Source: the human T2T-CHM13v2.0 reference genome, Homo sapiens. Taken from it: a stretch of 64,000 nt of DNA. Under the pieces are notes generated by a model. That model worked only from the letters and a program-made list of their open reading frames with translations, ran no database searches and had not been told where the DNA came from. Position numbers and translations under genes: made by a program. Shown here piece by piece: positions 54,201 to 57,200 of this stretch (position 1 is the first letter of the stretch; every line of letters begins with the position of its first letter). The DNA is taken from assembly GCF_009914755.1 (NCBI RefSeq), contig NC_060925.1; one strand, 5' to 3'.

Positions 54201-57200
54201 TGGAACAAAATAGAGGCAATATGAATACTCATCTAAGGCCAATGCCAGCACTCATGATGATAATAATAATGATACTGATGGTGACAGGAATGATAATGGG
54301 ATGGACAGGGAGCTCTGGGAGGCCAGGGCCCACTCGGCCTGTACACGACGCAGCACACAGTAAATAATTAATGCTTCTTGAATGACTGAGTGAAGTACCA
54401 AAAACTAGGCCAGCATCTAGACACAAGGTCAAGGAAGCCCAGAGAAAAGGCACTAGAGAAACCCTCCCAGGCGAGACAGCTCCTCTGACAGGGGTCAGGG
54501 GCCAGGGGTCAGGGGTCAGGGCCCGCTGAAGGACAGGGGCAGAGCTGAGTTCAGTCTCAGCTGTGCTCTGACCTGAACATGAGACCCCAGGCAAGTCTCT
54601 ACCCACCGTGAGCCTCGGTCTCCCCATTTGTGTCATAAAGGGCCTTGACAAAGGGCCCTCTGATATTTTGGGATTCTATGACACCCCTATAATCCCCCCA
54701 AATCCTTGTTACCTTGTCCCCCAGGAAGGCCCGGGGCAGCTGCCAGTAATAGAGGCTTCCAGGAAGCAGAGAGAAGCCTTCGTAGGAGAGAGAGAACTAG
54801 GAGGGAAGGGCAGGTGGTAAGAGCCGAGGGGAGCAGGGGTGGGGGTGGGAGGGCGGAGGTGGTTCCGGCAGGGGTGGACCGTCATGGGAGGGAGGCCTGG
54901 TGGCAGGGCAGAGAGACAGAGCCCCCCACTCCCACCCGACAGTGCGGGTCCTGGCCTTGCTCTTTGGACGACTTTCTTCCCAATCCCGGCCCAGGTCCCC
55001 AGCTGCTCTCTCTGGGCGTGGCCTGGGTCGGCTTCTCCTCCCATCTGGTGGGTCTCTTTTGTGGACCAACGTTTACACAGCACATCAGTAAACAATTTCA
55101 ATGGGATGGCTCCTTTCATATGTATTTGAAAGAGAGTAACCAGCCTGAGTTGGTACATGATTGATTTAAGAGAAAATTGGAAAGAAATAATAGTCCAAGT
55201 AGTTCACAGAAATTGGTGAAGTTGGTTCAGAAATGACTGAAGTCTAGAAAGCATGGTGGGTGGGGATCCCTTGATGGGCACCTTGGCACATACCTGAGAG
55301 CCTGGTGAGAAAGACAGAGAAGCTGAGGAAGAGGAGGAGGAGGAGGAAGAAGAAGGAGGAGGTGCTGCTCGCAGAGCAGCTGCAGGCTGGGGATGAGGAG
55401 AGAGCCCCTGGGGAGGGGGTTGGGGTTGGGCAGCAAAGCTGGACAGGAGCTGCCAGATCTCAGCATCCATCCGTCTCTGAGCCTCGTCCACCTGGGGGAC
55501 CAGGAGCCGAAGAGCGGCAGAAGGGAGCAGAGAGGGACAGAAAGGACGTCCGTGAGGCTTCACCTCCCCACGGGCCCAGCCAGCCACCCGCTCTGCACTG
55601 TCTGCTCACAAGTGCTGATACCTGGCACTCTGGCCCTTGTACCCACTGCCCTCTTGTTCCTCCTGAGCTAGGCGGGGATATCCCGGGATGGGTTTGGCTG
55701 CCTATGGGCCGTGACTGATGGGAGAAGCCCTACAAAGGGTGCCCAGCAAGGGAGGGGCAGAAGTGCTGGAGGCAGCCCCAGGGGCATCTGGACGGGGTTG
55801 TTGCTCCTCGGCCTGACTCTCTTTGTGTGCCCTGGCAACAGCCCAAGCCATTCATGGTTCTGGAATGTTTCCCAGGGGAGACACCAGAGCAGACCAGGCA
55901 TCAGGCTGGGGCCTGGCCTGGCATAGGGGAAATGGCCCAGGAAAGCTGGAGTCTTCGCTCAGGTGCCTGCCTGGACTCAGCTCTCTGGTCTCCTCGCTGT
56001 GGCCCTAGGTACAACCTGTCCTAGCCAGGTCCTCAGTTACCTGTGATGCCCGCTGTGCCCAGTCCCTGCCCTCTGGGGGCTCTGGGATCCTCCCAGCTGT
56101 CACGGCTGCCCGCAACTGCTCCTCTGAGAGGGATGTGCGGTTCTGATGAAATGGAGGGAGCAGGCGAGCTAAGACCTCCCAAAGTCCTGGAGCTAGAGCC
56201 ATGGGCAGGGTCCTCTACCCACGGACATGGTAGTCAGAAAGGCCCACACTAATTAGGAAGAAAGATGCATGCCCCCCCTCTCCAGGCTGGCACCCAAGGG
56301 TTAACTCCAGGCCGCCCACATGCACACAGAGGGTTCATGGTGGTTGCTTGAGAGGCAAGGCCAGGGGAACCCGGGGGGCTAGATACAGTCATGTGGATTA
56401 GCATCGGGTTAGTCTCCTTGCTACCTCAGTTGCCATTCTGACTTCAGACAGTTGGCACCAGGACCAGACCACACAGCAGGTGAGGCAAGGTGAGGCACAT
56501 ACCCTCCTGGCTCCAACCCTGGGGTCATGGGACACCGCCTGGATTCATGCAGACCCCCAATGCCTTGGGCACTGCGCATCTCCCCACGCAGGGCTGGGAG
56601 CACCCGAGAAGGCACCACGCCCCACCACACCAACTTCACACCACGCACGTCCTGGGCCTACCTGGTGAGCCCGGCGCATCCGCGCAAAGTACGCCTCCCC
56701 CTGTGGGGCGCAGGGAAATGCCAGGACAGGAGACAGAGATAGGTCTGAGAATTGCAGGACAGGGCAGCAGGGAGGCCAGGAGATAGCGAACCCCAGAAGG
56801 GAGAGGGGAGAAGGGACCAGAAGGCAGCCAGCCCCGGGAGAAGCCTGGAGTACCTGGCTGTGTCCAACGAACAGGGATAGGGCAACCCCAACCCCAGAGC
56901 GTGGGTGCCACCGGATGCCCGTGCTGCTCAAGAACACATTTGGGCAGGCTGTCCCAGAGCCCACCCCTGAGCCCCTGCCCCCGACAACACCATCACACCA
57001 TCGCCACCACCATCATCACCACCTTTCCACCAGACCCTGTTCTGGAGTAGCAAAGACAGGTTCACCTCTGACTGGCAGAGTATTTGTTTTTTTTTTTTTT
57101 TTTTTTGAGACAGGGTCTTACTCTGTCACCCAGGCTGGAGTGCAATGGTGCAATTATGGCTCACTGCAACCTCCCCATCCTGGGTACCAGCGATCCTCCC

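What the first reader, a model, noticed from the sequence alone, without database searches (positions are those of the whole stretch)
54713..56700. Hidden chain of up to six in-frame exons in HSPG2 intron 33: a candidate alternative perlecan domain III insert
Seen: intron 33 (51634-58014) is by far the longest intron here. It contains six AG...GT-bounded segments, all multiples of 3, all open in phase 0: 56662-56700 (39 nt), 56503-56538 (36), 56041-56142 (102), 55622-55714 (93), 55294-55491 (198) and 54713-54796 (84). The total is 552 nt, or 184 aa. Exons 32 and 33 both end in phase 0 and exon 34 starts in phase 0, so any subset can follow exon 33 or replace it without a frameshift. The segments lie in a ~2-kb Alu-free block between Alu clusters. 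Known: the canonical 4391-aa perlecan lacks this sequence. Inference: a regulated, modular splice cassette inserting a mostly disordered loop into the third L4 module. I picked the segments by eye, so the weaker ones (36 and 93 nt) could be chance. Parts may already appear in partial or predicted transcript models.
Basis: partly seen in the sequence, partly recalled or inferred. Interest (0 to 1): 0.9.

Follow-up and report, generated by a model that had tools for sequence, protein, structure and literature searches.

The report
Conserved alternative exon cassette in perlecan
Four of the six proposed segments in HSPG2 intron 33 are real alternative coding exons that databases already annotate and that are conserved from eel to human, while the other two look like chance.

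Summary
All six segments exist as described: AG/GT-bounded, multiples of 3, open in phase 0. Unfiltered, that property is at chance level: 533 such segments lie on this strand of the intron.

Four segments stand out: A 56662-56700, B 56041-56142, C 55294-55491 and D 54713-54796.
- Their splice-site scores fall within the range of true exons.
- Spliced between exons 33 and 34 they reproduce, 236/236, an NCBI record "heparan sulfate proteoglycan 2, partial [Homo sapiens]".
- The hub's RefSeq table lists them too.
- The same cassette sits in 32 full-length perlecan isoform models from 28 species: frogs, caecilians, turtles, lizards, coelacanth, an eel, opossum, bat and ibex.

The 36-nt and 93-nt segments have weak acceptors and no orthologue.

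Exon D is an extra copy of the strand motif that opens an L4 (laminin B) domain. Exon A carries an invariant R-x-R-R motif.

So this is a real, ancient 141-aa insert in the third L4 module, but it is not hidden. I found no paper describing it. Its function is unknown. My best guess is a fold-preserving surface loop, possibly cleaved by a convertase.

The parts
56662..56700 (-). Cassette exon A, 39 nt, 13 aa, phase 0-0. Carries the near-invariant FAR[M/L]RRAH motif (R-x-R-R).
   Evidence: Acceptor 8.8 and donor 8.4. Part of the human record P0001. Human versus Xenopus 10/13, versus Conger 8/13. R-x-[KR]-R present in 31 of 31 full-length models that show the motif. Listed in the hub table.
56041..56142 (-). 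Cassette exon B, 102 nt, 34 aa, phase 0-0. The N-x-S/T sequon lies at its start.
   Evidence: Acceptor 6.7 and donor 9.0. This acceptor is the one used in P0001 and in every spliced orthologue seen. Sequon present in 28 of 31 models.
56143..56214 (-). 72-nt 5' extension that turns exon B into the 174-nt exon 56041-56214 listed by the hub (RefSeq). Probably not the conserved form.
   Evidence: Acceptor score 0.1, below all 75 true exons. The frame is open for exactly these 24 codons, directly after an in-frame TAG. Only noise-level matches in 11 species.
55294..55491 (-). Cassette exon C, 198 nt, 66 aa, phase 0-0. It has a conserved 22-aa head (D-x-E-I-W-x-L-L-S-x-F), then a Pro/Ser-rich tail with a poly-Ser run.
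   Evidence: Acceptor 12.1 and donor 9.7. Mean pairwise identity of the head is 97% among 11 rows, against 45% and 18% in the 20 and 21-40 columns upstream of the acceptor. Period-3 repeat at 55325-55362.
54713..54796 (-). Cassette exon D, 84 nt, 28 aa, phase 0-0. It is an extra copy of the tail of an L4 first exon (..YWQLP..FLGDK).
   Evidence: 44% identical to the last 27 aa of exon 33 (E 1e-7) and 46% to the L4-2 counterpart (E 7e-7). Pfam Laminin_B profile positions 1-43 align to exon D plus exon 34 in P0001. Human versus Xenopus 21/28.
56503..56538 (-). Probably chance.
   Evidence: Acceptor 2.5, 4th percentile. Exon A is followed directly by B in 31 of 31 models. No minus-strand tblastn hit from 8 species. 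Noise-level scores in 11 species.
55622..55714 (-). Probably chance.
   Evidence: Acceptor 0.1, below all 75 true exons; donor 5.1. Absent from all spliced models viewed. No minus-strand tblastn hit. Noise-level scores.
58015..58206 (-). Canonical exon 33. It opens the third L4 module, and its last 27 aa are the resident copy of the motif repeated in exon D.
   Evidence: hub table.
51541..51633 (-). Canonical exon 34 (V-A-A-Y-G-G...). It continues the L4 domain after either copy.
   Evidence: hub table.

Best explanation
Intron 33 of HSPG2 holds a four-exon alternative coding cassette: A 39 nt, B 102 nt, C 198 nt and D 84 nt, all phase 0-0. When included between exons 33 and 34 it adds 141 residues, none of them cysteine, inside the third L4 (laminin B / laminin IV type A) module of perlecan domain III. 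The cassette dates back at least to the common ancestor of ray-finned and lobe-finned fishes, and it is already annotated.

Proposed mechanism (inferred, about 50%). The insert lies between the 'YWxLPxxFxGDK' segment and the 'xxSYGG' segment of the beta-sandwich. Exon D supplies a second, more consensus-like copy of the first segment directly ahead of exon 34. The sandwich can therefore close with the cassette copy. The resident copy and exons A-C then form a protruding loop. That loop displays a basic R-x-R-R motif, an N-glycan site, two conserved probably helical motifs and a Ser/Pro-rich linker. Together these would give a new binding or processing site on a domain whose function is unknown.

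The 36-nt and 93-nt segments are chance AG..GT pairs.
For: Shown:
- The splice of exon 33 + A + B + C + D + exon 34 equals the NCBI human partial HSPG2 protein P0001, 236/236.
- The hub table lists the exons in other RefSeq transcripts.
- Splice-site scores lie within the true-exon range. Only these four, plus two nested variants of C, pass cut-offs in 6381 nt, and none pass on the other strand.
- 32 full-length perlecan models of 28 species match the frog cassette, named by NCBI as perlecan isoforms. 31 of them show the exon-A motif. The 20 modules viewed sit between ..GDK and ..YGG.
- Blocks A and D are as conserved as exons 33-35. Human versus Xenopus: ex33 42/64, A 10/13, D 21/28, ex34 23/31, ex35 15/27. 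Human versus Conger: 35/64, 8/13, 15/28, 17/31, 11/27.
- tblastn of 8 species' cassettes against the human intron hits only the four exons. The D alignments end at 54796/54713 in 7 of 8.
- Conservation steps up at the exon C acceptor: 45% upstream, 97% in the head.
- The cassette is single copy in the human assembly.
- Exon D is homologous to L4 first-exon tails.
- Pfam Laminin_B scores 57.2 bits against a cut-off of 22.4 on P0001, and its start aligns to D + exon 34.
- A profile of 90 cassette-free L4 modules places its match states on exon D, not on the exon-33 tail, in 30 of 30 cassette-bearing modules.
- R-x-[KR]-R is present in 31/31 and the N-x-S/T sequon in 28/31.
- The human cassette has no Cys.
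- L4 is an antiparallel beta-sandwich inserted into an LE domain without disturbing its disulphides (passages of PMC6744579).
Against: - I could examine no RNA-seq, EST or peptide evidence, so inclusion level and tissue in human are unknown.
- Gene models are predictions and can propagate between species.
- RefSeq (hub) gives exon B as 56041-56214, not 56041-56142.
- The profile was trained mostly on L4-1 and L4-2 modules, which share the FLG[DN]K form with exon D. Its preference for D is therefore biased.
- Exon D is no closer to the exon-33 tail (8.6/20) than to the L4-2 tail (10.0/20), so its origin is unresolved.
- The strand-replacement idea has no structural test. Structure prediction accepted no job.
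- NCBI annotates the same exons as separate 'uncharacterized LOC' genes in deer, cat, cheetah, Nile rat, a bat and a dunnart.
- No DNA of other vertebrates was available, so synonymous versus non-synonymous change was not measured.
Confidence: 0.85

Rival explanations
1. The cassette is a site of proprotein-convertase (furin-type) processing. Cleavage after R-[M/L]-R-R in exon A would convert perlecan into a two-chain molecule held together by the LE disulphides and the shared beta-sandwich. In non-mammals a second cleavage after R-x-[KR]-R at the end of exon B could release the glycosylated exon-B peptide. This refines the best explanation rather than excluding it.
For: R-x-[KR]-R in exon A in 31 of 31 full-length models. 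A second R-x-[KR]-R at the end of B in 24 of 31. N-x-S/T between them in 28 of 31, which fits a secretory-pathway location. The L4 module is inserted in an LE domain whose disulphides stay intact (PMC6744579 passages).
Against: Motif only; no cleavage data. The dunnart model P0016 reads R-L-R-Q. The second site is absent in all 5 mammalian models and in 2 turtles. A basic helix could equally be a binding motif. A search for perlecan + furin / proprotein convertase listed no paper on perlecan cleavage by furin among the 10 shown of 3,516, from titles and abstract openings only.
Confidence: 0.2
2. The four exons form an independent gene, or an internal-promoter or early-terminating transcript, nested in intron 33 and encoding a small protein of about 140-260 aa. 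On this reading they are not a perlecan insert.
For: NCBI models in deer, cat, cheetah, Nile rat, a bat and a dunnart are stand-alone 'uncharacterized' or misnamed proteins. They start inside the intron and read through the exon C or exon D donor. The frame upstream of exon A is open for 104 codons in human.
Against: - There is no conserved start. The M in FARM is L in Nile rat, dunnart, opossum and some frogs and a turtle, and the models use different starts.
- The human frame upstream of A and C holds no ATG.
- Exon D ends in ..GDK in the same phase as exon 33 and only completes a Laminin_B match when joined to exon 34.
- 32 full-length models and the human record splice it into perlecan.
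- There is no CpG island in the intron; the maximum observed/expected ratio is 0.54.
- The nearest AATAAA after exon D is about 1.6 kb away, in or near a repeat.
Confidence: 0.1
3. All six segments, including the 36-nt and 93-nt ones, are used as exons.
For: Both are AG/GT-bounded, multiples of 3 and open in frame 0.
Against: - Acceptor scores are 2.5 and 0.1.
- 22 segments in the intron pass cut-offs loose enough to admit them.
- They are absent from the human record and from all orthologous models viewed.
- There is no orthologous match.
Confidence: 0.03
4. The exons are splicing noise, or an annotation artefact copied between genomes, and have no function.
For: Only predicted models and one partial human record were seen. 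No expression data were available here.
Against: Protein-level conservation equals that of constitutive neighbours out to a teleost. Lengths and junctions are conserved. There is a sharp conservation step at the exon C acceptor. tblastn against raw human DNA recovers the exons independently of any human annotation.
Confidence: 0.03

Closest known systems
Annotated HSPG2 transcript variants: RefSeq 'other transcripts' in the hub table, the NCBI record 'heparan sulfate proteoglycan 2, partial [Homo sapiens]' (P0001), and perlecan 'isoform X..' models of other vertebrates
   Same: Identical exons. P0001 equals exon 33 + A + B + C + D + exon 34, 236/236. The hub lists 54713-54796, 55294-55491 and 56662-56700.
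   Different: The hub gives exon B as 56041-56214 (174 nt) rather than 56041-56142.
Perlecan variants described in print: 'miniperl' and the mast-cell (HMC-1) forms
   Same: Alternative products of HSPG2.
   Different: According to section 4 of the review PMC6266596, those concern domain I and domain V, or N- and C-terminal products. No domain III insert is mentioned. Lord et al. 2014 (Matrix Biol 35:123) surveyed HSPG2 transcripts, but it is not held in the library, so I could not check whether it mentions this variant.
Agrin alternative inserts (8, 11 or 19 residues in the LG3 domain; an S/T-rich module spliced in or out)
   Same: A basement-membrane heparan sulfate proteoglycan in which short alternative exons insert residues into a beta-sandwich module and a Ser/Thr-rich segment is optional (passages of PMC4859157).
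   Different: The perlecan cassette is much longer (141 aa), lies in an L4 rather than an LG module, and ends with a duplicated piece of the host domain. No ligand effect is known.
Tandemly duplicated, mutually exclusive exons (kind recalled from general knowledge; no call)
   Same: Exon D is a homologue of the end of the neighbouring exon 33 and ends in the same phase.
   Different: The two are not exclusive: exon 33 is retained in all 31 full-length models and in the human record. D covers only the last 27-28 aa of a 64-aa exon and comes with three unrelated exons.
unc-52 (C. elegans perlecan) alternative splicing
   Same: Regulated alternative exons in the perlecan gene (review PMC6266596, section 4).
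   Different: That the unc-52 events lie in the Ig-repeat region is recalled, not checked. No homology to this cassette was seen in the five long, more divergent perlecan-like proteins aligned here (P0020, P0035, P0040, P0070, P0082), whose taxa I do not know.

Membership tests
Alternative coding exons of HSPG2 | Splice sites of normal strength | tested here: met
   A, B, C and D have acceptors 8.8, 6.7, 12.1, 7.9 and donors 8.4, 9.0, 9.7, 7.6, between the 21st and 84th percentile of the 75 true exons. This is not met by the 36-nt (2.5) and 93-nt (0.1) acceptors.
Alternative coding exons of HSPG2 | Reading frame preserved between exon 33 and exon 34 | tested here: met
   All are multiples of 3 and open in frame 0. 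The flanking exons are phase 0. The spliced product has no stop.
Alternative coding exons of HSPG2 | Present in a deposited human transcript or protein record | tested here: met
   P0001, named by NCBI as human HSPG2 partial, is 236/236 identical. The hub table agrees.
Alternative coding exons of HSPG2 | Orthologous conservation as coding sequence | tested here: met
   32 full-length models in 28 species. Per-block identities are given and tblastn results. Synonymous versus non-synonymous rates were not testable, because no orthologous DNA was available.
Alternative coding exons of HSPG2 | Junction reads or peptides in human tissues | not testable with these tools
   No expression or proteomics data were on hand. 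A full-text search for a 12-residue cassette peptide found 0 papers.
Laminin B / L4 domain (Pfam PF00052), for exon D | Match to the family profile above the curated cut-off | tested here: met
   P0001 scores 57.2 bits against a cut-off of 22.4. The best stretch, residues 194-235 (end of exon D plus exon 34), aligns to profile positions 1-43. Exon D alone (28 aa) gives no hit, but neither do the canonical control exons.
Laminin B / L4 domain (Pfam PF00052), for exon D | Takes part in the folded beta-sandwich | not tested
   Structure prediction accepted no job. Only the profile alignment preference is available, 30 of 30, and that test is biased.
Proprotein-convertase substrates | R-x-[K/R]-R motif | tested here: met
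   31 of 31 in exon A; 24 of 31 at the end of exon B.
Proprotein-convertase substrates | Cleavage at the motif | not testable with these tools
   This needs a biochemical assay.
Mutually exclusive duplicated exons | Only one of the two homologous exons is present in any transcript | tested here: not met
   Exon 33 and exon D are both present in the human record and in 31 of 31 full-length models.
Independent nested protein-coding gene | Conserved start codon and own reading frame | tested here: not met
   The M of F-A-R-M is L in several species. The stand-alone models use different starts. There is no ATG in the open frame upstream of human exon A.

The most novel reading that the evidence does not exclude
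The cassette is a regulated processing switch. When it is included, a furin-type convertase cuts perlecan after the invariant R-x-R-R of exon A, and in non-mammals again at the end of exon B. Exon D refolds the L4-3 sandwich. The result would be a two-chain perlecan, or a released conserved glycopeptide, with properties distinct from the single-chain form.
Probability: 0.15. Interest if true: 0.7.

Novelty: already known. Interest (0 to 1): 0.4.

Why it matters
Perlecan is an essential basement-membrane proteoglycan, and HSPG2 mutations cause Schwartz-Jampel syndrome and dyssegmental dysplasia. Section 4 of the review I read treats human HSPG2 as having few, uncharacterised variants (PMC6266596).

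A 141-aa insert in domain III that has kept its exon structure and key motifs from eel to human is very likely functional. I found no paper about it. One relevant paper could not be read.

The practical consequences are:
- Variant interpretation in 'deep intron 33' should treat 54713-54796, 55294-55491, 56041-56142 and 56662-56700 as coding.
- Antibody and mass-spectrometry work on domain III should allow for the insert.
- The function of the L4 domain, described as unknown in PMC6744579, gains a natural variant to compare.

The existence of the exons is not a discovery.

Tried and rejected
- Pfam on single exons gave no hits, but canonical control exons also gave none, so the test was uninformative.
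- Pfam on cassette-only proteins gave only sub-threshold noise.
- The ESM Atlas gave no usable hit.
- Rfam on the whole intron gave 0 matches.
- Repeat search in 54183-58014 found only short, chance-like pairs.
- There is no CpG-island promoter in the intron; the maximum observed/expected ratio is 0.54.
- RBFOX-type GCAUG motifs: 3 in the 519-nt A-B intron against 0.94 expected, with 6.4% of shuffles reaching 3. Across 54400-57000 there are 3 against 2.77 expected. Not significant.
- A relic in human of the extra non-mammalian segment between C and D was not found.
- Poly(A) hexamers just after exon D are absent; the nearest are at 53091 and 52886.
- The RBPMS-regulated rat Hspg2 exon is a different event of about 52-56 nt.
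- The search for the cassette in proteins of 414-2000 aa found none among 8000 candidates.
- Global alignments of whole perlecans misaligned the repeated modules, so I did not use them.
- Structure prediction on alignment A4 was not accepted three times, so no fold search was done.
- Lord et al. 2014 and Jung et al. 2013 are not held in the library.
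Full report
**Observation.** On the minus strand all six segments are present as described. Each is preceded by AG and followed by GT. Their lengths are 39, 36, 102, 93, 198 and 84 nt, and all are open in frame 0. 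Exons 32, 33 and 34 are phase 0-0. Counting the hub's exon list confirms that 58015-58206 is exon 33 and 51541-51633 is exon 34. Intron 33 (6381 nt) is the longest in the window; the next is 3083 nt. The stretch 54183-57080 has no other copy in the window. It is flanked by multi-copy blocks at 52946-53210, 53552-54182 and 57081-57376. No tool named the repeat family.

**Is it more than chance?** The bare property is not. The intron holds 533 AG..GT, multiple-of-3, frame-0-open segments of 30-260 nt on this strand and 598 on the other. I built acceptor and donor weight matrices from the 75 canonical internal exons of the window and scored them leave-one-out.
- Four segments fall in the normal range. 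I call them A (56662-56700), B (56041-56142), C (55294-55491) and D (54713-54796). Their acceptors score 8.8, 6.7, 12.1 and 7.9, and their donors 8.4, 9.0, 9.7 and 7.6.
- The 36-nt acceptor scores 2.5 (4th percentile).
- The 93-nt acceptor scores 0.1, below all 75 true exons.
- At cut-offs that just admit the four, only they and two nested-acceptor variants of C pass on this strand. None pass on the other strand.

**Already in the databases.** A search with exon C returned 18 proteins among 888 candidates. The best was an NCBI record named 'heparan sulfate proteoglycan 2, partial [Homo sapiens]' of 236 aa. Its sequence equals the computed splice of exon 33 + A + B + C + D + exon 34 at 236 of 236 residues. 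The hub's RefSeq table also lists 54713-54796, 55294-55491 and 56662-56700 among exons of other HSPG2 transcripts. It gives B as 56041-56214. That longer form has three weaknesses:
- It uses an acceptor that scores 0.1.
- It starts directly after an in-frame TAG.
- Its extra 24 codons find only noise-level matches in 11 species.

The human record and every spliced orthologue use 56142. So the chain is not hidden, and it has four exons: 423 nt, 141 aa.

**Conservation.** Short NCBI models from a bat, Nile rat, deer, cat, cheetah and a dunnart, plus unnamed records, contain the same exons joined at the same points. A profile of these found a 4303-aa perlecan that carries the cassette between ..YQGDK and VTSYGG...

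Searching with that protein's cassette among proteins of 2366-7531 aa gave 32 hits among 419 candidates. NCBI names all but one, a hypothetical protein of Capra ibex, as perlecan. They comprise:
- 15 frogs and 2 caecilians;
- 3 turtles (one with three isoforms) and 3 lizards;
- Latimeria and the eel Conger;
- Monodelphis (three isoforms), the bat Desmodus (a cluster of 136 member sequences) and Capra ibex.

Of the 32, 31 show the exon-A motif.

Per-block identities to human show A and D as conserved as the constitutive neighbours:

| Comparison | ex33 | A | B | C head | D | ex34 | ex35 |
|---|---|---|---|---|---|---|---|
| Human vs Xenopus | 42/64 | 10/13 | 15/34 | 10/22 | 21/28 | 23/31 | 15/27 |
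| Human vs Conger | 35/64 | 8/13 | – | – | 15/28 | 17/31 | 11/27 |

Further support comes from three tests.
- tblastn of the cassettes of 8 species against the raw human intron hits only the four exons. The D alignments end exactly at 54796 and 54713 in 7 of 8. There is no minus-strand hit on the 36- or 93-nt segments.
- Among unspliced ORF predictions that run across exon C, mean pairwise identity is 18% and 45% in the two 20-column zones upstream of the acceptor. It is 97% in the first 22 exon residues, 64% in the repetitive rest, and 61% then 44% downstream.
- The cassette is single copy in the human assembly. It has 3 matches, all at this locus, with 111 candidates scored.

I had no orthologous DNA, so I did not measure synonymous against non-synonymous change.

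**Anatomy of the insert.**
- Exon A carries F-A-R-[M/L]-R-R-A-H. R-x-[KR]-R is present in 31 of 31 models, although the short dunnart model reads R-L-R-Q.
- An N-x-S/T sequon lies at the start of exon B, just after the A/B junction, in 28 of 31. The middle residue varies (R, E, D, G, S, K). The sequon is missing in Paroedura, Latimeria and Conger.
- B starts with a conserved S-L-[ST]-E-E-[QE] segment. In 24 of 31 models it ends with a second R-x-[KR]-R. That second site is absent in the 5 mammalian models and in 2 turtles.
- C opens with D-x-E-I-W-x-L-[LI]-S-x-F, which is conserved from eel to human. It then becomes Pro/Ser-rich and variable in length. In human it includes a period-3 repeat at 55325-55362 that encodes the Ser run.
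- The human cassette has 24 Ser, 19 Ala, 16 Pro and no Cys.
- Non-mammals have an extra segment before D that left no trace in the human intron.

**Exon D.** It is homologous to the last 27 aa of exon 33 (44%, E 1e-7) and to the same part of the second L4 module (46%, E 7e-7). It ends in ..GDK in the same phase.
- Pfam Laminin_B matches the human record at 57.2 bits against a cut-off of 22.4. Its first 43 positions align to the end of exon D plus exon 34.
- A profile built from 90 cassette-free L4 modules puts its match states on exon D and treats the exon-33 tail as an insertion in 30 of 30 cassette-bearing modules. That profile was trained mostly on L4-1 and L4-2 modules, so the preference is biased.
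- Over the last 20 residues D shares on average 10.0 with the L4-2 tail, 8.6 with the exon-33 tail and 7.5 with the L4-1 tail (30 models). The copy is old and its source is unresolved.

**How it most likely works.** What is shown: a frame-preserving, conserved, alternatively annotated insert lies inside the third L4 module. According to passages of PMC6744579, L4 domains are antiparallel beta-sandwiches. They are inserted into an LE domain whose disulphide pattern stays intact, and their function is unknown. Solved perlecan L4 structures exist (9i5a, 9i5b) besides laminin alpha-2 L4b.

What is inferred (about 50%): exon D lets the sandwich close with the cassette copy of the strand segment. 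The resident copy and exons A-C then loop out. That loop offers a basic motif, an N-glycan, two probably helical motifs and a mucin-like linker as a new binding or processing site. The helical reading rests only on conserved amphipathic patterns and a crude hydrophobic-moment scan.

A bolder version (about 15-20%) is convertase cleavage at the R-x-R-R motif. This would give a two-chain perlecan held together by the LE disulphides.

I could not test either idea, because structure prediction accepted no job.

**Rivals.**
- *A separate nested gene.* The stand-alone NCBI models suggest this. Against it, there is no conserved start codon and no ATG in the open frame upstream of human exon A. D only makes sense joined to exon 34. 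The intron has no CpG island. There is no nearby poly(A) hexamer after D.
- *Replacement of exon 33.* No model supports this.
- *The 36- and 93-nt segments as exons.* Nothing supports this beyond their AG/GT and open frame.

**Literature.** Section 4 of the review PMC6266596 names only 'miniperl' and the mast-cell forms. It says reported variants correspond to N- or C-terminal products. Searches that gave no paper on this insert, judged from listings and the passages I read, were:
- perlecan/HSPG2/splice variant (64 papers, 20 listed);
- HSPG2 + cassette exon (5 papers);
- Hspg2/alternative exons/domain III;
- a cassette peptide (0 papers);
- perlecan domain III structure;
- perlecan + furin;
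- papers citing Lord et al. 2014.

The RBPMS-regulated rat Hspg2 exon in PMC6613909 is a different event of about 52-56 nt (supplement file 6). Lord et al. 2014 and Jung et al. 2013 are not held and may bear on this claim.

**Verdict.** The finding is real for four of six segments. They form an ancient and probably functional alternative cassette of perlecan. Its existence is already annotated, and its function is unstudied as far as I could see.

Noticed in passing
window 55386-55407 (inside exon C): The Ser-coding (TCC)n run acts like a polypyrimidine tract. Two nested AG acceptors, giving exons 55294-55407 and 55294-55386, score 11.7 and 11.5, and both keep the frame (114 and 93 nt). They could give shorter forms of exon C that lack the conserved head.
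   Followed up: no
window 55325-55362: A period-3 tandem repeat (12.3 copies) encodes the poly-Ser run of exon C. Its length differs between species, always in frame in the models seen. It is likely to be length-polymorphic in people.
   Followed up: partly
proteins P0006, P0009, P0010, P0015-P0018: NCBI annotates the same cassette as separate genes in several mammals. The names include 'uncharacterized protein LOC...', 'putative protein TPRXL' (cat), 'translation initiation factor IF-2-like' (red deer) and 'DDB_G0277255' (cheetah). These look like fragments of HSPG2 with retained intron ends rather than genes of their own.
   Followed up: partly
full-length models: Non-mammalian cassettes are longer, 173-254 aa against 137-163 in the mammalian models. 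They carry a second R-x-[KR]-R at the end of exon B and an extra segment before exon D with an S-[ST]-N-[LV]-L motif. The mammalian models viewed lack both, and the human intron keeps no trace of the extra segment.
   Followed up: partly
proteins P0022, P0031, P0109-P0111: Gene models of other species use subsets of the cassette. One has A + B + D, with 7 extra residues between A and B. One has C + D only. Three have A + B + the late part + D without the head of C. This suggests modular splicing, or incomplete models.
   Followed up: no
PMC6613909, supplement file 6: RBPMS regulates a skipped exon of about 52-56 nt in rat Hspg2 (rn6 chr5:155853492-155853543). That length is not a multiple of 3 and it is not one of these exons. 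I did not map it to the window.
   Followed up: no
window 8010-11033 (+) and 8052-9296 (-): According to the hub table, the last exon of LDLRAD2 overlaps the last exon of HSPG2 on the opposite strand, giving tail-to-tail overlapping 3' ends.
   Followed up: no
protein P0031 residues 378-444 and 446-522, 622-662 and 667-730: This 867-aa model repeats two stretches of its own sequence word for word. It is probably an assembly or gene-model artefact, and it upset the global alignments.
   Followed up: no
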